DNA of 64,000 bases, taken from the NCBI GenBank assembly GCA_026770705.1, contig JANJGN010000002.1:48794001-48858000 (forward strand), given 5' to 3'. A model generated the notes under the pieces. The model did no database searches. It worked only from the letters and a program-made list of their open reading frames with translations, and was not told the origin of the DNA. Each line of letters begins with the position of its first letter. Positions within the stretch are counted from its first letter, which is position 1. The translations under genes were made by a program, and so were the position numbers. Below, piece by piece: positions 8,173 through 57,726 of this stretch. The DNA is from Isurus oxyrinchus (Eukaryota).

Positions 8173-8742
8173 TTCTATAACGTTGAATGCATAAGACCTC
8201 TTTCTCAATTGGAGAAAGTACTGTAATGCATGTCAATCCTTACACAATGCTGGCCAATTTAATGGTCACTTACCTTTTAATGACAGAGCTTTATGATCAA
8301 TCAGTGCATTAAAAACATAAATAACTTATTATACAGAATCTAATTATGACATTTGGAGTTGGCAAGACCTCAACTTGTCAAAAAAGTTCCCAGCTCCACA
8401 ATAGGCTCCCCCAAAGATTCATGACTCTTCTGAGGTGCCATGAATTGCATCTCCAAATAAAACTGGACTAACTTCATGAAAATAGTGGAGGGATGGGGAG
8501 GGGGCCCAAAATGCCCACCCTTGTGATGTAATAGGCAAGGTCTCGCTACCCACACTTTTATTCAGGGGCCATGAAAATCCCATAAGCTTGGAATGGGGGT
8601 GTGAATCTCAGAATTGGATCTCGCCTGCCATTTTAAAATCCCGCCATCTCCCTTTCAACATAGATGGAGGCATGAAAATCTGCTTTAAAGTCTCCAGATT
8701 TGCTTGGGATCTCAACTTAGTCTGTTGTTTACCAGGTGTGCA

Positions 8743-9371
8743 TTTGATTGCAAGAGGACTTGAGTACAAGAGCGAGGATGTCTTACTGCAGCTATACAGG
8801 GCCCTGCTGAGGCCACACCTGGAATATTGTGTGCAGTTTTGCTCTCCTTACCTAAGAAAGGATATATTTGCCATAGAGGGAGTGCAGCGAAAGTTCACCA
8901 GACTGATTCCTTGGATGGCAAGATTGTATGAGGAGAGATTGGGGCGAATAGGCCTGTATTCACTGGAGTATAAAGAATGAAAGGGGATCTCATTGAAACA
9001 TATAAAATTCTTTCAGGGCTGGACAGATTGGATGCAGGGATGATGTATCCACAGGCTGGGGGATCTAGAATGAGGGGTCACAATCTTAGGACGCAGAGTA
9101 GGCCATTTAGGACTGAGATGCGGAGAAACGTCTTCACTCAAAGGGTGGTCAACCTGTGGAATTCTCTACCTCAGAAGGCTGTGGAGGCCAAGCCACTGAA
9201 TATATTTAAGAAGGAAATAGATTTCTAGACTCTAAAGGCATCAAGGGGTATGTGGAGAGAAGTGGGTGCATGGCATTGAGGTAGAGGATCAGCCATGATC
9301 CTATTGAATGGTGGAGCAGGCTCGAAGGGCCGAATGACCTACTCCTACTTCTACTTTCTATGTTTCTATGT
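8743..9371 (+). mobile_element. CR1 LINE, 5'-truncated (RT C-terminus + 3'UTR)
   Basis: ARGLEYKSEDVLLQLYRALLRPHLEYCVQF..RKDI..IEGVQRKFTRLIP and GDLIETYKIL..RNVFTQRVVNLWNSLPQKAVEA; tail ctactttctatgtttctatg. Confidence 0.95.
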
Positions 9372-9674: not shown

Positions 9675-10460
9675 CTCTGGAGTATGTGCAGCATTTTCCT
9701 TATCTTGGCAGCCACCTCTCCCAAAGGACTATCATCGATGAGGAAGTCCAAAACCGAGGAAACTGTGCCAGTGCTACCTTCTTCAAGTCTTTGTCAACAG
9801 GGACCTTTGCAAGTCAACAAATGTTCTGGTTTCTAAGGCTGTTATGTTGACCACCCTCTGCTACTGCAGTGAAACATGGACTGTTTACCAACACCATGTT
9901 AAGATCCTTGAGAGCAGTGCTTGCGTCGAATCCTGGGGATCAAATGGGAGGACCTCTAGATTAATGCGAGTGTCCTCCATGAAACTGTATCTACCAGCAT
10001 TGAAGTGCTGCTCCTGCAAAACCAACTCTGATGAATGGGCCATTGCGTCTGGATGCCTGAAAACCACCTCCCTCGGCAGGTTCTCTTCTCACAGTTCCTT
10101 TTTTGTCAACGCTCAAAAGGCAACCAAAGGAAAAGCTGTAAGGATATGCTCAAGGTCACGGTAAAGCACCGAGGCATTAACACCACTAACTGGGAGGAGA
10201 ATGCTGCCAGTTGCTTGCCATGGCACCACCTAGTCCATCAAGGCGCAAGCCACTTTGAGGCTCAGCGATTCGACAGTGAGGCAAAACGGCGGCTACAGAG
10301 GAAGTTGAAGGAAGCCTGGGCTGCAATTTCCACTCCCCTGTGCAACAACATGCCCCCGCTGTGGAAGAACATATGGATCCAGAATTGGGCTCCTCAGTCA
10401 TCTGAAGTCTTACCAATCCTGACGGACGTCATCCTCGATTCTGAGGGACCGCTGACGATT
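9675..10460 (+). mobile_element. RTE-clade LINE, 5'-truncated, decayed
   Basis: LEYVQHFPYLGSHLSQRTIIDEEVQNR, LTTLCYCSETWTVY, MGHCVWMPENHLPRQVLFSQ motifs across frameshifts; homologous to 62670-63784. Confidence 0.85.
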
Positions 10461-10464
10461 TTGG

Positions 10465-12792
10465 AGCTGGGAGAAAATTTCTGCCTAGGGGCTTTTGCAC
10501 AAATATCGTCTGGCAATAAGGGCCTGCAGCCCAGCCTGCTGTTTGACTGGAGGACCACGAAGAGAAAGAACAGCAACAAGTAATGGAAGGACCTGCAGCT
10601 ACAGAGAAAAGAGTGAAGGAGAAGAGACTGCAGGTGTTCTTATCCCACATGAGTATATGGGACAAAAGCATCTTCCCTGCAGTTCACTTCAGAGGGGAGG
10701 TTTGAGCAAGTGATGTTATCTGTCACAGCACTAACTAGAGCCAAGAAACTAGGTCACAAACTTCATTACCTGTGGCTCTCAAGATGACAGTGGGCCTGAA
10801 TTTTATGCCTCAGGGTCACTTTAGGCTGTAGCAGGTGACAGACACAATCTCCACCAAAGCAGACCAGCTCAGCACTTTCCCTATGGAGACTGCAAGACAG
10901 GAAGACAGGATTTTGGGCTTCACCACAATCGCAGGTCTTTCTTGCAGGTCTTTCTTGCCAAGCTAGCTTTGTGTCAAGAGCCTGGAGAATACGTGAACAG
11001 GAAGGATGTCCATTTGCTGGCTGTGCAGTGCATAGTGTTAGTCTGTGCACTGTTTCCTGGCAGTTGCCATGATGCATTTACCCTGTATCAGCTCTCAATT
11101 ATCCCTTGCTTGCAGCTGCACTATTGGGTGATAGGGAGGCTGTTATTGGAATGAGTGATGTCCTGTGAATCCATGGCTCAGGTCACCTGTCAGAAACCCG
11201 TGCAGAGGCACAGAAGTGTGATATATTCAGAGCCATGTCTCTATCACAGGTCTGCACAAATTATCCTGAAACAGGATGTTCAGTATGAAAGCATCCTGCA
11301 GCATAGTTTTGAGGAAGTCCTCAGACTTGCTGTAGAATGTTGTACACTGCATAAATTTGCTCTGCAAAGGGAGTGACCATTGGTGCCACCTAGGGATGAA
11401 GAGGTAGAGGCAGACCAGCAAGAAGTACCATAGGATTCTGAGGAAGAGCAAGGGTACTGATCCTGTCAGCACCAGAGCTATCTGCCAGCTGTTCATTAAG
11501 GAATGCAATCATTCCTGCCCCCACCCTGCCCCCATCCACACCAACAGTCCCTTCTACCATCAGACCCAGTCCTTCAATTCTCCAGATGAATGATCTCAAC
11601 TTAAACATCAGCATTAGTATTTCTACACATCACATAGCACGGTCAATAAACAATGAAGTTCTGCACAACAGGAAGCTCAGTGAAAATTTGTAATGCCAAG
11701 TTGACAGAAAAGAAAAAGAAAAAGTGTCACTCCGAGTGCTGTCCTTTAGGTGCTCTTCATGCTCACCTTGAGCTTACCACCAGTGGCTACAGGATGAGAG
11801 ATGAAAGGCATCTCTGTTTCCATTGAGAATGCTTGAGATGGCTATCATGAGTGACCTCGAGGAGTTCGGACCTGAGAAGGCTCAACTACAGAATGCAGCA
11901 TCTTGGTTACTGTCAGAGCACTTTGACCCAGTTGCCTTTTTGACACCAGCATGAGCACTGTTTGACGAGGTGGCAAGGAATCAGTCCTACTTTTGTCTTG
12001 AGAGGATACAGCAAGTGACCCCTCCAGAGGCGCTGGTGTCGTTGCCACTCTTGTGAGATGTGCTGTGATCCTTCTCATGTCTGAATTCCTCGAGATCACT
12101 CATGATGACCATCTCAAGCACTCTCATTGGATGCAGAGCAGCATCCCATCTTCCATTTTGTAGCCACTGGTGGAGCAATTTGCAGGAACATGAGACTAGC
12201 ATTTAAAGTGTTGAAGTGGTGTGAAAGTTTGAAAGTCCCTATCTATACTTTTCTTCATGCTTAAGCAAGCTGCAGATCTTTGAAACTCACAGTCTGAAAG
12301 GCAGCAGCCTGAGCTTCCATTGGCAGTTGTTAGAAATTCCACTACTGCTACCGAGCCCTTGGCGTGATGTATTCATCTTCTCAGCTACTTTTGCCCACTG
12401 TTGCCAGGCTATTGATCTTGCTGGCCTCCTCCCATCGTCCAGCAATAGGACCTCCTTCGCCCGTTTCCCTTTTCCATAAGAACCATCATAGATTGCCTGA
12501 AAATGTTTGCAGCACTCTTTGGAACTGCATACTCCACATTCAATCACTGGAGCATAATAGTGCGGGCGAAGTAAACATCCCCTTTAAGAGGCACAGGCTG
12601 CAACTAAATCCCTGAATTGACCCCCTGTCAATAGGTGAGCTGCCAGCAACCAGCTGGATTAACACTGGCAGTTCCCCCTTCATATAGAACTGAGACAGAA
12701 ACCCATTTATGGTTTGCACTCTATCCCGGCCTGGCCCCAATGATGCCTCACCCATTTTGCATTCACTTTAGGCAACAATTAAAAATCCCCCC
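10465..12792 (-). mobile_element. Decayed PIF/Harbinger element with Myb/SANT (trihelix) gene relic
   Basis: Minus ORF 12287-12547 has KEVLLLDDGRRPARSIAWQQWAKVAEKMN, typical of Harbinger Myb/SANT proteins; GC-rich ends; extent uncertain. Confidence 0.55.
11821..12129. repeat. 60 bp inverted repeat with ~190 bp spacer
   Basis: 11821-11880 vs reverse complement of 12070-12129, about 52/60 identical. Confidence 0.85.
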
Positions 12793-33574: not shown

Positions 33575-33690
33575 ACTCCTTTGGAGAGGTAAGATACCTC
33601 TTTGAATCTGGTACTGGGACACCTTTGGGGGAGGTAAGGTACCCTTTGGTGGAGGTCAGGTGCCCTTTGGTGGAGGTCAGGTGCCCCTTG
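33575..33690. repeat. 21 bp minisatellite (ccctttggtggaggtcaggtg)
   Basis: Three near-perfect units at 33621-33690 plus a diverged upstream unit. Confidence 0.8.
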
Positions 33691-34372
33691 GCAGCAGTAA
33701 AGTTCGCTTTGGAATTGTTATAAGTCAGCATGGATGTGTATAAAAAATGCATCAACCCATTACTGTCAAGCTCGCTGGAACTGTCAACAGACCTGTCAAA
33801 TCTCAACTGAGAAAACTGTCAGAACCATTTGTCAAGAGGACCTGTCAAAAGTGTCAACAGGGCCTGCCAAAGGAAGTTGTCAAGGAATTTAAAAGTCCTG
33901 CCCTTTAAATCTTTGAAAAAAAACTAGAGCATTAAAAAAGGATTGCTTGCTATTTTACTCTGTCTGTTGACATAAGCCCATTACTGGATTAGTGCTGCAT
34001 GACTGATTTCACAACCACCCATTATCACAGCAGGGTGCTTGCTATTTTCAGTTTGATTGACTGCTACAAGTGGTTATGGACTCTTTGATGTGGGACTGTG
34101 AATTCCAATCTTTGTTCTTATAAGGGATTGTGCGCTTGAATAAAATGTCTGTTGTTATAAGACCTCATTTAGTTGAAGGAATGCAAATGGAGTAAATGAG
34201 TTTTTATGAACTAGTATTTTCTTCAGTATAGTGAAGTCTGCAATAGACTCTTAGAACTTTATTTTATCTATTGCCTGCATGGGTCCTGAGGCCTACCCAT
34301 AGTGACTATCGGGTGAGTTGGCATGGTAGTTGTAAGGGCACAGCGTGGGTAGGCTAACATGGGTTGACATGA

Positions 34373-34564
34373 TAAAAACAAAAAACTGCGGATGCTGGAA
34401 ATCCAAAACAAAAACAGAATTACCTGGACAAACTCAGCAGGTCTGGCAGCATCGGCGGAGAAGAAAAGAGTTGAAGGGTCATGAGGACTCGAAATATCAA
34501 CTCTTTTCTTCTCCGCCGATGCTGCCAGACCTGCTGAGTTTGTCCAGGTAATTCTGTTTTTGTT
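34373..34564 (+). mobile_element. Fold-back Penelope-derived short element (very young)
   Basis: Perfect 68 bp inverted repeat 34407-34474 / 34497-34564; perfect 14 bp TSD atgggttgacatga (34359-34372, 34565-34578). Confidence 0.92.
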
Positions 34565-36640
34565 ATGGGTTGACATGAGTTGGCACTAAGTTGACATATA
34601 GGCTATAAAGTGCCATGGGGGACTGTGTGGACTGGCATAGGGGCTGCAAAGGGCCATTTGTGGTGGGTGGAAGGGCATAGTTTGGCATGAAGGTTATGAG
34701 GGTCCATGGAGGGTGAGTGAGTGGGGAGCACACCTTGCCATGGGGGCATGAAGGACAATAGTTGTTCGGGGGACATACCTTGGCATCGGGGCAAGAGAGG
34801 CCATGGGGTGAATGGATGTGTGGGTGCATGAGGTGGCATGGGATGGCATGGATGGGACATAGGCAGTGTATGAAGAGCTGAAGGGAGTGAGGGGTTAGGG
34901 CTGGAGGGATATTTAATATATTCTATTTTTTTATTTTTGATCACAGTGCTGGAGCCTCGAGGCAGGCCTGCTGTTCAGCCTGCCTCCATATGTGCCTCCT
35001 CACTTCTTCAGGGCTGGTCTACCCTGATTTCTAATCCAGCCCGACCCCTTGGACTGAAAATCCAACGTCCAGGCAACCATTTTTAAAGGTTTGCAGAGTC
35101 GGGAATTCTCCCGTCTCTGCGCACCCAACCCCAGAGTGAAAATCTGAGCCATGCTGTCCAGATTAAATTGTACCTTTGTGATTAAGTCAGCAGCAAATGA
35201 GAAGCACATACCTTCAGATTCATAATTGGTTAAAGGTGGCATGCAGCGGGCGGGGTAGTCTTCTGGGGTGCATTTGGAGTGAGTAGGAGCTTTTCTTGTA
35301 TGGGGGAGATTAGTTAGACCATGGGAGAGGAGGCTGAGCTGTTGCATTGACCTCGGGTGGCAGGTGTCCAGGGAGGTCGGGGCATGGCTTTTTGAGGGAG
35401 GGAGGATGGCAGCAGCTACAGGGATCCAAGACTGACAGATGGACAGGAAGTGGCAGCAGCTCCCATTCAAAATCCTCCTCTCAGACAGAGAGAATGCTGC
35501 TCCTGGCTTACAGGGAATGGATACCTGTCCGAGTACCCTTTAAATATGGCTCCCAGACCTTTGACCCATGTAGTAACAGCAGAATCAGCGAGTTTCTGCC
35601 TGCCCCTGCTGCATTTTTGGCCAGGCTGCTTGACTGTGCATAGTTAATGACTGTGTGATTGTATATGGGCAACTGTTCCTGCCTCTGTGCAGAAGATCTG
35701 CTCATTTCCAGTCTGCTGTCAGGCCATTCGCCACTGCCACAAGATTCCACTATAAGTGTGAGAACCTGAGAAATTAGAGGCAGCAAAACAAACTAACCCA
35801 ACAACTAGGATAAGTTCCTACTATTTGAACTGAGGGTAGATGGTCGATGGACTTCCCACCGTTCAGTTCTTGAACAGATGATTTTCACAATTTCATTGTA
35901 AATGGAGTTTACAAGTATAAATTACTAAATGTGTTTTTGAGGGGAAAAAAGGCAGCAAATTGGAGGAAAAATAATTCTGCTTTAACGTAGTGATAAAAGG
36001 TAATTTTTTTTTTAAATTGGTTGGCATTTTAATACAAGCAGATTTGTTTTGAAAATTACTTATTGGACAAGATTAAAGAAAATCCCTCATCTCAGATTGA
36101 TTTTTGGAAGTTTTCAAAAAGGAACTGAATAGCTTTTTTTTAGTTGGGGGATAAAATGTTACATTTTGGGAAAGGTAATGAGAGTTTAGTGCATAAAGAA
36201 ATTGGAGGACAAGAATGGGTTGCTACACAGGTTGACTCAAAAAACAGAATTTGAAACTGAATGACTGTTTCTCATTTCGAAGATTGATGTGCTAAGGCTA
36301 TACAGCATCCCAACATTCACGGATCCCTTGTAAGCACAGCATATCAAATTCTCCCTTGAACACAGATTAGACTGCATTTGCTGCACAGGTATACCTCTCC
36401 TCCTGATCACACAGCATACCCCACTCATTCACATGTTCCTCTTCACCACAACCAGAATTCTGCATTTTATATTACTTCTGGACACAGTGCATCTCTCCTA
36501 TGTTACATGAACTCCTGTCCACTGGAGAAGTAAGTGAACAGCTTTATATTAATGATTTTCAGATTGAACTAGTAGACTATTCCCATATGCCAAGGGAATC
36601 CTAATTGACCATAAATATTGCAATGTTTCACTAAACATTA

Positions 36641-36849
36641 CCTGCCCTGATTGTGTCTATCTCTGTAACCTCCTCCAGCCCCACAAACACCTGAAATCTC
36701 TGTTCTCCTTTAACTCTAGCCTCTTGTGCATCTTCAATTTTCATTGCTCCACCTTTGGGAGCCATGTCTTCAGCTGCTTGCAACCTAAACCCTGGAATCC
36801 GCTCTCCAAACCTCATCTCATTCTCTTCCTTTAAGTCACTCCGTAAAAC
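36641..36849 (+). mobile_element. L2 LINE 3' fragment, left half (split by Gypsy insertion)
   Basis: tatctctgtaacctcctccagccc...gccatgtcttcagctgc...cctttaagtcactccgtaaaac; colinear with 45800-46010 and 55815-56000. Confidence 0.85.
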
Positions 36850-36993
36850 TGTTCTGCACTGCCGCCATGCTCTGCACTGCCAGCGTGCTCTGCACTGCCG
36901 CCATGCTCTGCACTGCTGCCATGCTCTGCGCTGCCACCAGGCTCTGCACTGCCACCAAGCTCTGCACTGCCGCCATGCTCTGCACTGCCAGCA
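36850..36993 (-). repeat. 8 x 18 bp array of PBS-like units (TGGYGGCAGYG-CAGAGCA on minus strand)
   Basis: Exactly eight 18-mers with consensus tgctctgcactgccgcca; unit 6 contains cactgccacca, identical to the element's PBS at 40005-40015. Confidence 0.95.
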
Positions 36994-37267
36994 TGGTTTG
37001 GCTTGATTCCCTTTAATTGTTTAGTCTTCTGGCTCGATGAGGTTTCACTTATTCTAGGAGTGACTTGGAGATCGTTTTTCTCAAAACTATTTATTTAGAA
37101 CCATTTACATCCAAGACCTTATGGTAAATACATTGTTATCTGGACAGAGAGTTTTCTGTGTCTTGCTCCCTTGGAGTTTCTTCGTCATCTGACCCTGATA
37201 TTATGCTTACATTTCATTGCCTAACATCATTGCCTAATTAATATAACCATTAATCCTTTACTCTACA
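36994..37267 (-). repeat. 3' LTR of Gypsy element
   Basis: Direct repeat of 40016-40283; on the minus strand starts TGTAGAG right after polypurine tract GGGGGGAGA (37268-37276). Confidence 0.9.
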
Positions 37268-37599
37268 TCTCCCCCCAAGTATAATCTCAAAAAGTTATTA
37301 AAGTATTTACATTTAATTACCACCGTCTATTAACCTCATATACTGTTTACAGTTTTCATCCAACTTCTACCTCTGCCACTCCCCCTCCAAGTCACTTGTG
37401 CCAAAGACATCAATGCCCCATGGTGTTCCCGGCTCTCTTGGAGGAAGCATAGGACATATATGTTCCATTATCTTCTCCTTGGAAGGTAAATACATTGCTG
37501 GAGTGGGATGGAATTTCTCTCTACAGCTGGCTCCTGGGCTTTGACTCTTACAATGACCTGAAGGGAAAGGCAGTAAAACTAATCAAGGAAAAACTGATG

Positions 37600-38580
37600 G
37601 AAGAGAGCACCTTCCCAAACTCAAACAATCACAACCCCTTGAAAAGGAAGACAGTGAACTGAAAGTCTCTCTGTTATCTTCTTCTGCATTGCATACTGAA
37701 TCATGAATGAATCTGGCACACGAAAAGAAAAGCAGTGAACACCCTGAAGACAGAGCAGGATACAAGGAAAGGAAGACTTCCCTACTACTCTTATGGTAGG
37801 AATTTCACGTTCTGTAGGCAGTGCTACCATTTCCATGCCTGTTTCAGTGTAAGACTGCTCTGCTGAATCTCGAGGGTCAGCAGGAGAAAGTAGAACAGCG
37901 CCATCATAAACAATGGAATAAACTTCCAGACCAGGATCTATAGGAAGCTCCTGTCTAGTACTCTTCAGCTGTAAAAGTTCTGTAGTTTGGGCCTCTTCTT
38001 ATTTACTGAAAGAAAGTTTGCGTGCGTCTTTGGCTTGCTGATGTGATCCAAATGTCAACTCCAACTTACATTTGTGCAATTAATAAGCTCTGAACCTCAT
38101 TATCAGTTTGATCCACTTTGGAGTTAAGCATCTCATTCTCCCTGGAAAGCTTTTGGCTGGCTGCTTGCAATTGTTGATGCATGTCATCTGTGGGCTTGGT
38201 GGAATGAGTAGACAAATTCACCTCTTTATTACTTTCTTCAACAAAAGGATGATTCTCCTCAAAAGAGACAGCAAAGACTTCCCAATCATTGGCAGCAGAA
38301 TCCAAGAGTGTGGTAAGTTTTAGGATCGCATCTTCCAACAGATCATCTGTTTCTGCGGTGGCTTCATTCTCTTGAACTCTGCCCTGAAAGAGCTTACCAC
38401 GGTCTGGAAGCTCCTCTAGCAGATGGCCACCATCTTTACAGTGCATCCTGTTTATACCTCTTCTAGCCTGTCCTCAAAGAGATGTGAGAGATCTGCAATT
38501 TCCTCCTGTGGTCCAATGGATGGTGTTTCTTCAACAAAGACTGGCTCACTGGTTAGTGAGTTGACGTCAATTTTTGCTGC
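37600..38580 (-). pseudogene. Unrecognised acidic/coiled-coil ORF relic in place of pol RT-RNaseH-IN
   Basis: Long minus-strand frames with few stops, e.g. 38066-38446 (..ETDDLLEDAILKLTTLLDSAANDWEVFAVSFEE..QQLQAASQKLSRENEMLNSKVDQTDNEVQSLL); no YxDD, RNaseH or integrase motif seen. Confidence 0.5.
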
Positions 38581-39863
38581 AGTTTTGAACTTTTCCAGTC
38601 CTCGGAATAACTTTGGAAATTCATTCCTGATTATTGCTCCACTGTCACCTCTTGTTACCTCTTTGGCCTTTTGTAGAAACTAAGTCCTGCACATGCAGTC
38701 CTGCTGAGCAATTTTCTGGGCCTGTAAGATATAAAAACTTTTGTTAGATTCTTTATCTTCATGCCTAACGGTTGTAGTTAACTGACACTTCACTTTGAGC
38801 CCTGTACGCCCTTTCCCCTATAGCTTTATTTTAGATGGCTGGATTACTACTTCCTTAATCCAGTTCTGAAGTTAGTCCAATTTGCCCAATAAAATTGAGA
38901 CCCCAGCCTTGGTGTCAGTTTAAATTCTGTTCTGTATCGTTGGACTTCCAGCTCTATGGACCAGAAGTGCTTTTGGGATCTTTGATTTCTCCTAAGAATT
39001 CGTCAGGCTGAAATGCTGTATTTCCAATTTCCTGGACTTCAAAATGGTTGGAAACATGTTCTAGCTTTATTCCTTTAAATTGTGCTTTAGATCTGCAGAA
39101 TTGTTTAAAATGTCTGGTCTTGACACAGAGAAAGCAGTGCTGGGCATTTTTTGTGGTATTCCTGCTTTTGGCACTGTTATCTGGAACATTTTAAAATAGT
39201 TGGAAGGCTTATTTCCACTGCCTCAGTGGTTTTGGCGGGCTTTGTCACGGGGGCTTATAGGTGGGCAGGGCTTCTGATTTTGGGCCTACATACTGGATAG
39301 ACCCTTCCCCAGCCTCATTGCCTCTTTGAACTACACCCCAATCCTGCTTTCACAGCTCTGCCTGCCTTGTGGACTGTTCAGACTTCTCTAATGTTAAATC
39401 CCCCTTGGTTTGCCAAAAATTCTAACAATGCCTCATTGAGCATGCTAACTACAATGTGGCCATGAATTAACTCATGTTTTAAAGCTCTGTCACTGCAGCT
39501 ACTGACCTGGTGATACAAGTCGTTATTCAATTAATCAATGGATTCACCTGGCCTTTGGCTCCCTTGCTTGAATCTCACCCATTCAATGACCAGATTCTTC
39601 TTAGGGCTGAAGTAATCATTGAAGAGCCTCAAACCCTCTTTGTAGGGTGCTGAGGTCTCCTCAACTACTTGTGTTACCAAAACATCATCAGCTGTGGCCC
39701 CATTCACATATAAAGGGGTACTGACCTAGTGCGTTTGTGTCCTGTCCTATAAGACTGAAGCTGTTTGGTACCTTTCAAACTGTCACCTCCAGCGCTCCCA
39801 ATGCCGTCCTTGTTGCGGACCCTCTGTGTTTGAAGGGCTGTGAAAGGGGTAGTGGCTGTTCAT
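38581..39863 (-). pseudogene. Gypsy gag-protease pseudogene
   Basis: ATG 39863; WERWR*QFERYQTAS, RFKQGSQRPGESID*LNNDLY, LKHELIHGHIVV, DLTLEK; CX2CX4HX4C knuckle CFLCVKTRHFKQFC (39095-39136); frameshifted FKL/DTKAGVSIL protease site (~38891-38925); LLSRTAC; EFPKLFRGL. Confidence 0.9.
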
Positions 39864-39997
39864 GGCTGATGACATCATTAGTGGTTCATTCACTGCACCT
39901 TAGCAATATACATCCTATTTTTGTTGTTCTTTGCAAAGCTAAGCTATTCCTAGGTTGTGAGTTACCAATCCGTGGTCTCAGTTTTCTTAAACTCCAG

Positions 39998-40015
39998 CTT
40001 CCAACACTGCCACCA
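39998..40015 (-). other. Primer-binding site complementary to tRNA-Leu 3' end
   Basis: Minus strand TGGTGGCAGTGTTGGAAG directly after LTR ..CA; vertebrate tRNA-Leu(AAG/TAG) ends ..CCCACCRCUGCCACCA. Confidence 0.8.
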
Positions 40016-40283
40016 TGGGTTGGCTTGTTGCCCTTTATTTGTATGGTTTTCTGGCTCACTCTAGGAGTGACTTGGATATGGTCATTATTTAGATTTTCTC
40101 AATATTATTTATTTAGAACTATTTACATACAACACCTCAGAGTAATTACATTGTTCTCTGGACACAGACTGTTCTGTGTCTTGCTCCCTTGGACTCTGTT
40201 GGTAATTTGACCCTGATGTCATTGCTTACATCATCATTAACATCATTGTCTAATTAATATAAGCATTAAACCTTTACTGTACA
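40016..40283 (-). repeat. 5' LTR of Gypsy element
   Basis: Direct repeat of 36994-37267 (tctaggagtgacttgga, tatttatttagaac, ttctgtgtcttgctcccttgga, taacatcattg.ctaattaatataa); TGTACA start on minus strand. Confidence 0.9.
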
Positions 40284-40421
40284 AAAATCTACCTCATTGA
40301 CCAAGCTTTTGGTCATCTACCCTAAAATATCTTTGTGTGCCTCGATGACTGATTATGCTCCTGTGAAGCACTTTGGTGTGATTTTGCTATGTTAAGGGTT
40401 GTTTATAAATGCAAGTTGTTG
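40284..40421 (+). mobile_element. L2 LINE 3' end, right half
   Basis: ctacctcattgaccaagcttttggtcatc...gctcctgtgaagcac...tataaatgcaagttgttg continues exactly where 36849 stops. Confidence 0.88.
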
Positions 40422-43085
40422 TATGTTGATGCCAGGAGCATAATTTTGTTTATCATATTTGCAAAAGAACATGTCCTATCCTTTAGTTAATTCCAGTTTC
40501 ACGTGTCAATGTTACAATTATGGAAAAGAAGTACAGTACATCATAGGGTTAAATTAATTCAGATTAATGTCTTAGCTACCAGAATCATTTATTGCAGTTG
40601 TTATGGTTCAAGAGCTGACTAAAGCAGTTGTTGAACAGTTGCTTTTCACTCTAGAGCTTTCCCACTCTCTTTAATTTGTTAAAATCATCAAGAGCTGCCT
40701 GTTTGTGGTTTTCCTCATAAATTCTGTACATCCTCTTGTTAGCAAAGTGTTGTGTACACTAAATACAAAAGCGCCTTGTGTCTTGGGCATAAATTACCTC
40801 TGTGCGTTACTGTCTCTGAATGGGCTCCCCAGTTATGGATTACTTTGTTCTAGACTTGACAGGAACATAATTAGAGCTGTTGATGAAATCTACAAAATTG
40901 TTCCTCAGTGGCTTCAATGGTTCAGAAATTCAGCACAGCTATATTTGTCAGCACCAAAGGGCTCTAAACAATTTATATTAACTATATTATTATGTACAAG
41001 TCATTATTCTTGGCTAATATTCTTTGCATTTTCTTGCTAGTGCACTTGATCTATTTGTTCACATGTAGTTTTTCAGTTTGTAATTTTTATCATGTAGACG
41101 AGGGCTAACGCAGGTAGATCGATAATGCTGATGGTTCATTTGTCTAAGTGATGCATTTTCTTTGGCTATCTCTCAGGCATGCATTCTTGTTTTCTTTTGT
41201 TTCAGTCATTATAGAATTAGCATTTTTTCTTTAGCAGATAAGTATTTCCCTGATCAAGACCACTTTGAATTCATACAGTCACAATAGCAGCCACAGTGTA
41301 ATAGGAAACCATTTCCCACTTTTCAAAAAACAAATAATACTTAGGCCTTTCATAACTGAATTTCTCCTCAGCAGCACATGGTCTTTATTGTATAATTTGG
41401 AACATTTGTTATGGAAAACTTAAAATATGTAAAACAAGAATAAATCATATAAAATACCATCCAACATATTGATTGCTAATTTTGTGTGGCCATGAATGCT
41501 GGTTTCTGAAATATTGTGATTTACTTACATTATCCAGTGGGTGCCAGGGGCATATTACTTGTGCCCGGTTTAACTATTGAAGCTTTTTTTGGTAGTTATT
41601 AATTCTTATACACATTGAATGATTGCCTTTTTGGAGGGGGAGGGTTAAGAAGCTCTGGTATGTTTTATTAATTTGTTCCACTGTGAGAGAGCCTAAAACG
41701 GCCTACACTGAAACATGCAGAGGACAGCTGAGCAGCTGATCAAAAACTTTGAAGGTCCAGGCAGAATTTATTATGTAGGAGAGAAAGCGATTATTGTTTG
41801 TCTGGTCTTGCATTTGAAAGGGCTTCAGTGCATAACTGACTGCTTTCTAAAGGATGCACGTCGCCCAAACTACCATAGTTATCATGTAATGTATAAACTA
41901 AACAAAAATGAAATCAAGAATTTTAAGTGGTACATTCTCAAAGACACCTGCTAGACTGTTTTCCATGTAATGATGAATATCCCTTGGACATTTAACTGTT
42001 ATCTGTAAATGAAGTAAATTGGCATTGCCAGTAATTCAAAGTTGGCCGGTTAATTTTGTTTAGTACTGTATGTAGCCTTAATGCAATATTGTAATCATTG
42101 GTTGATCCATTTTAGTCTTAAAGAACTTCAGAATTCCCCATTATTTTCTGCAGGGGCTGTTGAACTGATTGTGACCTGATTCATCCAGAAAGGATTAAAG
42201 GTGCAATAGTACAGCAAATGATCTAGCTCAATAGCATACAATATCCTGGCAAACATCTGTACCTGATATTGATATTCAATATATTGTTTTTCCTTGTAAT
42301 AGAAATGGATGTGGGCCAAGTGTTATTTTAGATCTTCAATTCACTGACAAACATAACATTTCTTAATTTTTTTATTTAAAACAAAACTGCATTTGTGGTC
42401 CCTTCATTTCAGCTGAAAAAAACGCTAACCTTGTCATATTGAGTGCGATGGTGCAGAAATGATAACTGTATGTTTTAGAAAGACATCTTATTTAAATCCT
42501 GAATACAGGCATGCCTCACATTCATTGCTCCTGAAGAATTGCATATGGATTAGGAGGATGAATATTCCATTATTTCAGTATATTGTGCTGATCTTCTTAT
42601 TGGGACTTTATGTTCAAAAAAACCTGCAAGAAATTCAGCCTTTCCATCTTCGACAGTAATTTTGACTGTATGTAAAGCACTTGATATTGTATTATTTGCG
42701 TGCTGGGGCATTTTATTTTGCCTAAATTTGCACTTGTTAACTTTCTTTAAAACACTACTTCAATATTTCTGGATATTAAAGATGTCAGTTATTACCAAAA
42801 GTAAATAAAAATGCATATGAGAAGGAAATGTAATATTGAACATTTCTTTAGTGCTAATCCTTATTGAGTAATCACAAAAGATGATTAAGTATTGTGTAGT
42901 TTTCACATTCCTGATTTTTATGTAGCCCTTAAGCCCATTTGTCTGTGGTTTAGAAAAAAATAGTTAATCTTATTTGCTTTTAGACTGTGTGCGTGAGCAT
43001 GGGTTGAAATATCTTTATTTGTATTTCATGCACATATGTGTTCTACATGTTTATTATGCGTTCATGATCCATAGGTTATCTTGAG

Positions 43086-57027: not shown

Positions 57028-57726
57028 GGGCAGAATCTTCTGTTCGACGAGCGGAGGGGTGGGGCCCGCTCATCGTCGCGTAAAATGATGCGGGGTGACG
57101 TTGGGCAGTTCAGCTGTGCACCCGCCAAACTGTCAAAGGCCTATTATGGCCACTAAAAAAGTAATTAACATGATTAATGGACCTGCTCGTCCAACTTTAA
57201 GGTTGGCGGGCAGGCCGGGAACCCAGGTGGGCTTCTGAGAAAACATGAAACTTTGTCCACGGGTTTCATGAGGGTATTAAAATTTTTATAAAATGTTTAA
57301 ATAAAAGAAATTGACATATCCCAGCTCATGTGCCAATGGCACAAGTGGACCTTTCAGTAATTTTTTTCCCCTTCTTTATTGAAATTTTCAAATCTGAGCC
57401 GCTCTCCCTGAGGCAGCACTTTCCCTCAAGGAGATCTGTGTGCCCTTTAGCACGCATGCACGATAGAGTGCACTCCCGGCTCAGGGGATCCCCACCACCC
57501 CCCACCCCACCCCCCCCCACCCCCCCCCCCCCCCCCCCCCCCCCCCACCCCCCAACCCACACAGGGTTCCTGGCAGATGTCACACTGGGCAGGCCTTAAT
57601 TGGCCCGCCTGTGTAAAATGGCAGCGCGCCCCCAACTGGGGACGCCGATCGGGAACCCACCCACTCGTGCCCGCTCCCACACAAACCCCCCCCCTGCCAC
57701 CCCAAATGGGGGGAAAGATCCTGCCC
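57028..57726 (-). mobile_element. Non-autonomous PIF/Harbinger-type element with internal poly-C
   Basis: TIR gggcagaatctt / aagatcctgccc (11/12); inverse homologue of 7520-8172. Confidence 0.75.

What the first reader, a model, noticed from the sequence alone, without database searches (positions are those of the whole stretch)
36850..36993. Array of eight primer-binding-site units outside the 3' LTR, inside the TSD
Seen: the 3' LTR (ending ..CA at 36994 on the minus strand) is followed by eight exact-length 18-mers before the TSD. Each is an 11-nt PBS-like sequence (TGGTGGCAGTG/TGGCGGCAGTG, matching the element's PBS at 40005-40015) plus CAGAGCA. The last unit ends in CA at the aaaac/aaaat TSD. 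Known: a 3' LTR normally abuts the TSD and the PBS occurs once; the 11-mer is complementary to the tRNA-Leu 3' end. Inference: either tRNA-primer-templated sequence was retained or added repeatedly at the cDNA end and integrase used a distal CA, or one aberrant unit expanded by slippage after insertion. A transcribed array could also act as a multivalent binding site for tRNA-Leu or 3' tRFs.
Basis: partly seen in the sequence, partly recalled or inferred. Interest (0 to 1): 0.75.

Follow-up and report, generated by a model that had tools for sequence, protein, structure and literature searches.

The report
Primer-site array fused to retrotransposon end
An old, broken jumping gene carries eight tandem copies of its tRNA primer site attached to its right-hand end inside the insertion scar, likely because its parent had a duplicated primer site and began copying from the last one; it is likely a one-off relic in this genome rather than a family trait.

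Summary
Eight exact-length 18-nt units (36993-36850, minus strand) follow the 3' LTR of a decayed, non-autonomous Ty3/gypsy element (gag and protease, no RT/RNase H/integrase), end in CA and sit inside a 5-bp TSD that splits a host repeat. Each unit starts with the element's 11-nt tRNA-Leu PBS; the last 7 nt are not tRNA-like. Contigs from the source species give the family's LTR and interior bins 11-219 times single-copy depth but the array bin only 2.4 times, about what this one locus predicts (1.8-2.2), so most copies lack it. A close relative shows 8 times, unexplained. The units are as diverged from each other (13.7%) as the two LTRs (14.1%), so the array is probably as old as the insertion. 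Best reading (0.5): a donor with a tandemly duplicated PBS was primed at the innermost copy, the outer copies became an extended U5 that integrase joined normally, and the 5' copy never formed or was lost. Main rival (0.3): a one-unit extension expanded later by slippage. Repeated tRNA-templated addition is poorly supported. A curious fossil with no sign of function.

The parts
36850..36993 (-). Array of eight 18-nt units, each an 11-nt PBS copy plus 7 nt; last unit ends in CA flush with the TSD
36845..36849 (.). Target-site duplication, distal to the array (AAAAC on +)
   Evidence: table 7
40284..40288 (.). Target-site duplication at the 5' LTR (AAAAT on +; 4 of 5 identical)
   Evidence: table 7
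36994..37267 (-). 3' LTR, 274 nt, TG...CA
   Evidence: 219 of 255 aligned columns identical to the 5' LTR
37268..37277 (-). Polypurine tract abutting the 3' LTR
   Evidence: sequence
37278..38550 (-). Multi-copy interior that replaces RT/RNase H/integrase; no Pfam family above its cut-off
   Evidence: (no tblastn match beyond residue 422 of P0007); depth 30-143 times single copy in X1
38557..39851 (-). Decayed gag and protease region, broken by stops and frameshifts
   Evidence: matches P0007 residues 17-422 (E 2e-25 and 2e-18); P0007 carries RVT_1, RNase H and integrase domains in Ty3/gypsy order
40005..40015 (-). PBS abutting the 5' LTR, 11 of 11 with the human tRNA-Leu(UAG) 3'-end probe, 15 of 18 over the full length (by eye); no array here
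   Evidence: table 8 records 7 (X1) and 30 (X5) span this junction without gaps
40016..40283 (-). 5' LTR, 268 nt, TG...CA
36700..36844 (-). Downstream half of the old host repeat split by the insertion
40289..40422 (-). Upstream half of the same host repeat

Best explanation
The array is eight tandem copies of the element's primer-site region lying between the 3' LTR and the TSD, and it was likely carried in as an extended U5 end from a donor whose primer site had been duplicated in tandem. Inferred steps: (1) in a donor copy an 18-nt stretch that starts with the PBS and ends in CA was duplicated behind the 5' LTR; (2) tRNA-Leu primed at the innermost PBS, so minus-strand strong-stop DNA copied all upstream units as if they were U5; (3) after the first strand transfer they formed the double-stranded right end of the cDNA, ending in CA, which a trans-acting integrase joined normally, giving a clean 5-bp TSD; (4) the left end came out without units, because plus-strand transfer took place at the first unit's 11-nt PBS homology or onto a co-packaged RNA without the array, or because the units were later deleted between unit 1 and the true PBS; (5) the number of units may have changed after insertion. 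An array on the 3' LTR alone would not be passed on, so this copy is a dead end. Shown: anatomy, TSD, PBS identity, age parity, low copy number in the source species. Not shown: the donor.
For: The array starts flush with the LTR's CA and ends flush with the TSD at a unit boundary, where the next PBS would begin. Clean 5-bp TSD; in HIV and ASLV an end that integrase cannot use is joined by host enzymes and usually leaves large duplications or deletions (PMC5041404, passages), so the distal end was likely a proper duplex substrate. Unit divergence 13.7% (column bootstrap 5.6-22.8%) against LTR divergence 14.1% (10.1-19.0%), while orthologous contigs of the related species differ by 29 of 1648 bases: the array is old. 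All 8 units differ from both LTR ends at the same two of the last 7 positions, and 4 of 8 share a non-tRNA base at position 4: they descend from one already changed founder, as expected of a genomic duplication. Precedents for the steps: partial PBS duplication in HIV-1 MAL-type isolates (PMC3185550, passages); premature and aberrant plus-strand transfer (PMC12657518, passages); LTR asymmetry in 26 of 88 HIV proviruses (PMC9278108, abstract); Ty3 transfer through R-U5 of a second plus strong-stop DNA (PMC5371799, passages).
Against: The simple form predicts the array in both LTRs; the 5' junction has none in either species (table 8, records 7 and 30), so an extra step is needed. No donor is seen: in X1 the array bin is 2.4 times single-copy depth and this locus alone predicts 1.8-2.2. 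LTR mismatches are even along the LTR (11, 13, 12 per 85 columns), so there is no sign that the two U5 regions came from different RNAs. An LTR-end origin of the 7-nt tail is weak: 5 of 7 with the 3' LTR end, chance 0.13 once the CA is given. The age intervals are wide enough to allow a later expansion.
Confidence: 0.5

Rival explanations
1. One aberrant cDNA end (LTR plus 11 nt copied from the tRNA primer plus 7 switched or untemplated bases ending in CA) was integrated once, and the single 18-nt unit then expanded in the genome by slippage or unequal exchange.
For: Ty3 makes a dead-end plus strong-stop DNA that stops after 12 nt of the tRNA (PMC5371799, passages). Explains the bare 5' junction with no extra step. 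Single locus in the source species. Units 1-2 and 7-8 share an identical 32-nt stretch, a hint of stepwise duplication. The 8-fold depth in X5 could be a longer orthologous array.
Against: Units are as diverged as the LTRs, so expansion must have come soon after insertion and then stopped. The shared change in units 1 and 7 has a chance of 0.33. A single-stranded overhang is a poor integrase substrate, yet the TSD is clean. A lone unit has little to seed slippage.
Confidence: 0.3
2. A tandem dimer (LTR-interior-LTR-PBS-interior-LTR) integrated, a deletion later joined the middle PBS to the last 7 nt of the third LTR, and the resulting 18-nt proto-repeat expanded.
For: Gives LTR + PBS + LTR-end CA + TSD directly; tail matches the 3' LTR end at 5 of 7; might explain the indels and transversion excess between the two LTRs (10 transitions of 32 mismatches away from gaps). 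Tandem LTR elements are reported for ta-TRIMs (PMC4558846, passages).
Against: Needs a dimer, a precise deletion and an early expansion; the tail match is weak (chance 0.13); no remnant of a second interior.
Confidence: 0.08
3. Reverse transcriptase copied the primer end reiteratively, telomerase-like, and added the eight units in one round of replication.
For: Age parity with the LTRs; the period equals the classical 18-nt PBS length; unit 3 is identical to the first 11 nt of the Leu(UAG) probe and unit 4 to those of the Leu(AAG) probe.
Against: The tail is not tRNA-like (2 of 7 against the human probes); 4 of 8 units share a non-tRNA base; slip-back homology before the LTR tail is 4 of 11; not repeated at other copies in X1. 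The species' own tRNA-Leu was not available (no tRNA gene in the window).
Confidence: 0.07
4. The array is an unrelated minisatellite or an assembly artefact.
For: No listed contig spans the array (table 8 is cut: 11,057 pieces not shown); part of the X5 signal could come from an unrelated repeat.
Against: Exact register with the LTR end and the TSD, PBS match of chance 8e-6, diverged units rather than identical ones, and contig depth over the bin in both species.
Confidence: 0.05

Closest known systems
Partial PBS duplication in HIV-1 MAL-type isolates (PMC3185550, passages seen)
   Same: A PBS-region sequence is duplicated in tandem next to the U5/PBS junction.
   Different: There one 23-nt insertion lies downstream of the working PBS, inside the provirus; here eight units lie beyond the 3' LTR, inside the TSD, and none at the 5' junction.
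Ty3/Ty1 dead-end plus strong-stop DNA that copies 12 nt of the primer tRNA (PMC5371799, passages seen)
   Same: LTR followed directly by about 11-12 nt of tRNA-complementary sequence.
   Different: An unintegrated intermediate with one copy; here the extension is integrated, repeated eight times and has a 7-nt tail that is not tRNA.
Aberrant and asymmetric HIV-1 proviruses (PMC12657518 passages; PMC9278108 abstract; PMC5041404 passages)
   Same: Strand-transfer errors leave tRNA-derived sequence or unequal LTRs in integrated copies.
   Different: Those are mostly deletions or single tRNA inserts at the 5' junction, and host-joined ends usually lack a normal TSD; this end has a normal 5-bp TSD.
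Non-autonomous Ty3/gypsy derivatives (LARD/TRIM type; PMC4558846, passages seen, a tRNA-Leu-primed TRIM)
   Same: LTRs, tRNA-Leu PBS, PPT and TSD kept, enzymes missing.
   Different: This element keeps decayed gag and protease; a terminal PBS array is not described in the passages seen. The gag looks like the Mag clade (recalled, not tested).
Minisatellites seeded inside transposable elements (recalled, no call)
   Same: Head-to-tail 18-nt units with CpG decay.
   Different: The unit is the primer site, and both array ends coincide with enzymatic boundaries (LTR CA and TSD).

Membership tests
Ty3/gypsy LTR retrotransposon | Two LTRs bounded by TG...CA | tested here: met
Ty3/gypsy LTR retrotransposon | tRNA-complementary PBS after the 5' LTR and PPT before the 3' LTR | tested here: met
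   (human tRNA-Leu probe; the species' own tRNA not available)
Ty3/gypsy LTR retrotransposon | 4-6 bp TSD | tested here: met
   the TSD lies beyond the array
Ty3/gypsy LTR retrotransposon | gag-protease related to polyproteins with RT-RNase H-integrase order | tested here: met
   (P0007)
Autonomous Ty3/gypsy element | Own RT, RNase H and integrase | tested here: not met
   no match in the window beyond residue 422 of P0007; no Pfam hit above cut-off. Filed as a non-autonomous derivative.
Mag clade | RT phylogeny | not testable with these tools
   RT is absent; the label is recalled from the look of gag only
Array as a fixed family LTR feature | Present in both LTRs | tested here: not met
   table 8 records 7 and 30
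Array as a fixed family LTR feature | Present after most family LTRs | tested here: not met
   X1 array bin 2.4 times single copy against 78-92 for the two 3' LTR bins and 11-143 for the 20 interior bins; X5 8.0 against 45-68 and 5-81, so a minority of copies in that species is not excluded
Reiterative (telomerase-like) primer copying | Whole unit templated by the primer RNA | tested here: not met
   last 7 nt match the human tRNA-Leu probes at 2 of 7 (by eye); another primer RNA is not excluded
Reiterative (telomerase-like) primer copying | Homology that lets the new 3' end re-anneal one unit back | tested here: not met
   4 of 11
Host slippage minisatellite | Younger than the insertion that holds it | tested here: inconclusive
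   13.7% against 14.1%, wide intervals
Host slippage minisatellite | Unit number varies between alleles or species | tested here: inconclusive
   X5/X1 depth ratio 11.4 in the array bin against 1.15-3.29 in the other 29 bins; no spanning contig listed

The most novel reading that the evidence does not exclude
A Ty3/gypsy reverse transcriptase copied the primer-end junction reiteratively and built an eight-unit, telomere-like extension on one cDNA end that integrase then joined with a normal TSD, and the surplus signal in the related species comes from further insertions made this way.
Probability: 0.06. Interest if true: 0.85.

Novelty: new variant of a known kind. Interest (0 to 1): 0.38.

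Why it matters
If the best reading holds, the locus records how an LTR can grow: a duplicated primer site moves the start of reverse transcription inward, and former primer sites become part of U5 and the integrase end. It shows that the integrase accepted an end 144 nt beyond the normal one with little more than CA, and it is a case that LTR-finding and LTR-dating programs would mis-bound. It appears to be one dead insertion, with no evidence of function, which limits its weight.

Tried and rejected
No whole genome was held, so copies could not be tabulated one by one; the family test rests on one read-laying run with 4 of the 24 listed runs, whose tables were cut (2033 loose ends and 612 joints not shown, among them any at 36850 other than host-repeat joints, 36994 or 40016) and whose depth the tool says is no copy number. 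No RNA holder listed; the two guessed-RNA runs X19 and X20 cover only the host-repeat flanks and one 46-nt interior piece: no evidence on expression either way. Array motif in viral contigs: 0 matches. LTR 20-mer in metagenome contigs: 2 matches, both chance, no further similarity. Word-index protein searches with the gag piece and with an array-coded frame: 0 hits among 239, 7 and 280 candidates. Pfam on the three interior frames: nothing above cut-off. No tRNA gene or Rfam family in the window. Folding: array z 0.65, LTR/PBS junctions z 0.49 and 0.16, no unusual structure. The unit's tail occurs once in the interior at 7-8 nt but not at 9: chance. Earlier findings by place, by sequence and four of five word look-ups answered were blank (one search gave hits). 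Ten literature searches (listings seen) listed no paper whose title or abstract start describes a PBS array outside a 3' LTR; the library lacks most subscription papers and Repbase/Dfam entries, and no supplements were read, so this is not proof that it is unpublished.

Full report
Observation. On the minus strand the 3' LTR ends in CA at 36994 and is followed by eight units of exactly 18 nt down to 36850, then by the TSD. The units differ pairwise at 1-4 positions, with no indels; TRF scores the array 211. Their first 11 nt match the element's PBS at 40015-40005 at 9-11 of 11 positions, and the chance of such a match directly behind the LTR is 8e-6. No other copy of the unit lies in the window. 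The TSD is firm: the element splits an old host repeat whose halves align end to end to an uninterrupted copy at 56143-55861, and 469 contigs of run X1 and 277 of X5 continue from 40284 into sequence that matches window 36815-36844 in register at 23 of 30 letters (table 7, counted by eye). The duplication is therefore the 5 bp at 36845-36849 and 40284-40288, and the array is inside it.

The element. LTRs of 268 and 274 nt are identical at 219 of 255 aligned columns. A purine tract abuts the 3' LTR. An open 64-residue piece of gag found 35 relatives; one of them, P0007, is a polyprotein with RT, RNase H and integrase in Ty3/gypsy order, and its residues 17-422 match 39821-38557 while nothing beyond residue 422 matches the window (11 of the 35 proteins were used as queries). 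The element is a decayed non-autonomous Ty3/gypsy derivative. The PBS 11-mer is identical to the start of the human tRNA-Leu(UAG) 3'-end probe printed in PMC6103689 (one passage) and matches 15 of 18 over the full length (by eye). The species' own tRNA could not be checked.

What the unit is made of. Positions 12-18 of the units match the tRNA probes at 2 of 7 (by eye) and the sequence behind the real PBS at 1-2 of 7, so the unit is not a full copy of the primer site. They match the 3' LTR end at 4-5 of 7, but once the final CA is given this has a chance of 0.13, so a U5-end origin is only a hint. All eight units differ from both LTR ends at the same two tail positions, and four carry C at position 4 where the probes have T. 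The units thus look like copies of one founder that had already changed, with later CpG decay (window CpG observed/expected 0.24), and not like independent copies of a tRNA. Against this, units 3 and 4 are each perfect 11-nt matches to two different tRNA-Leu probes; one transition explains that equally well.

Age. Mean pairwise unit divergence is 13.7% (10.3% without the two CpG columns; column bootstrap 5.6-22.8%), LTR divergence 14.1% (10.1-19.0%). Orthologous contigs of organism B differ from the window at 29 of 1648 bases, so the insertion is much older than the split of the two species, and the array is probably about as old as the insertion. Units 1-2 and 7-8 share an identical 32-nt stretch, but a shared change of this kind arises by chance with probability 0.33. 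LTR dating is itself doubtful: only 10 of 32 mismatches away from gaps are transitions, which I cannot explain.

Is it a family trait? No genome was held, so I laid contigs of 4 of 24 listed runs on 36730-40629 at 80% likeness. Taking single-copy depth from near-identical contigs (15.0 for X1 from 5 records, 51.4 for X5 from 3), the two bins inside the 3' LTR stand at 78 and 92 times in X1 and 68 and 45 in X5; the 20 interior bins at 11-143 (median 44) and 5-81 (median 24); the array bin at 2.4 and 8.0. Splitting of this one locus into overlapping graph pieces predicts 1.8-2.2 by itself, and LTR-PBS contigs reach 7 bases into the bin. So in the source species the array is most likely at this locus only. 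In organism B the surplus is not explained: the X5/X1 ratio is 11.4 in this bin against 1.15-3.29 in the other 29. A longer orthologous array, a few more array-bearing copies or an unrelated repeat would each give it. Limits: the tool states that depth is no copy number, 76% and 52% of the runs were read, records are filtered, and the loose-end and piece tables were cut before any row at the LTR ends. Contigs spanning the 5' LTR/PBS junction without gaps exist in both species (records 7 and 30), so the left junction has no array.

Mechanism. A clean TSD suggests that integrase joined both ends; ends that it cannot use are joined by host enzymes and usually leave large duplications or deletions (PMC5041404, passages; shown for HIV and ASLV, carried over here by inference). 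The simplest way to obtain a double-stranded end that stops exactly at a unit boundary is priming at a PBS lying right behind the last unit: everything upstream of the primer is then copied as U5. That needs a donor with a tandemly duplicated PBS region, for which HIV-1 MAL is a small precedent (PMC3185550, passages). The cost is the bare 5' junction. It can arise by plus-strand transfer at the first unit's 11-nt homology (premature transfers are documented in PMC12657518, passages; LTR asymmetry in PMC9278108, abstract; intermolecular transfers reviewed in PMC6894440, passages), by Ty3-type transfer through R-U5 onto the product of a co-packaged RNA without the array (PMC5371799, passages; the use of a second RNA is my inference), or by later deletion. 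None of these is shown here, and LTR mismatches are spread evenly. I give this 0.5. The main rival, a single 18-nt aberrant extension that expanded soon after insertion, explains the asymmetry for free and has the Ty3 dead-end strong-stop DNA as a model, but fits the clean TSD and the age parity less well (0.3). A deleted tandem dimer (0.08), reiterative copying (0.07; slip-back homology 4 of 11) and an unrelated repeat or artefact (0.05) remain.

Earlier notes of this scan (AI notes, not checked here) describe the same module, LTR end plus PBS repeated, in other genomes, once inside both LTRs and three times in a leader. They agree with the donor model, which I had noted before the look-up, but they are leads and not support.

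Novelty and verdict. Ten searches (listings only, no supplements read) showed no paper on a PBS array beyond a 3' LTR, in a library that lacks most subscription journals and repeat databases. The parts of the mechanism are known; their combination at one integrated end is unusual. There is no evidence for expression or for tRNA binding. New variant of a known kind, interest 0.38.

Noticed in passing
window 40283-40016 against 37267-36994: The two LTRs differ mostly by transversions (10 transitions of 32 mismatches away from gaps) and by indels of 11 and 15 nt, unusual for neutral decay of identical LTRs.
   Followed up: partly
window 38550-37278 (minus): The pol region is replaced by a multi-copy stretch (30-143 times single-copy depth in X1) with a 135-codon open frame at 38473-38066; only weak coiled-coil-type Pfam matches below cut-off. 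It suggests a non-autonomous subfamily with its own cargo.
   Followed up: partly
window 36860-36989 in run X5 (organism B): Array-like sequence is about 8 times single-copy depth, a clear outlier against the source species.
   Followed up: partly
window 34400-34571: Inverted repeat with 75-nt arms, 97% complementary, 22-nt loop; looks like a collapsed small inverted-repeat element (recalled).
   Followed up: no
window 33622-33712: 21-nt tandem repeat, 3.3 copies at 91%, with further short repeats at 33830-33871.
   Followed up: no
window 8486-8980 and 9742-10583 (+): Open frames that look like the C-terminal parts of LINE reverse transcriptases (resemblance recalled, not searched).
   Followed up: no
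window 57490-57562: Long C-rich run, 64 nt at 80% C-unit match.
   Followed up: no
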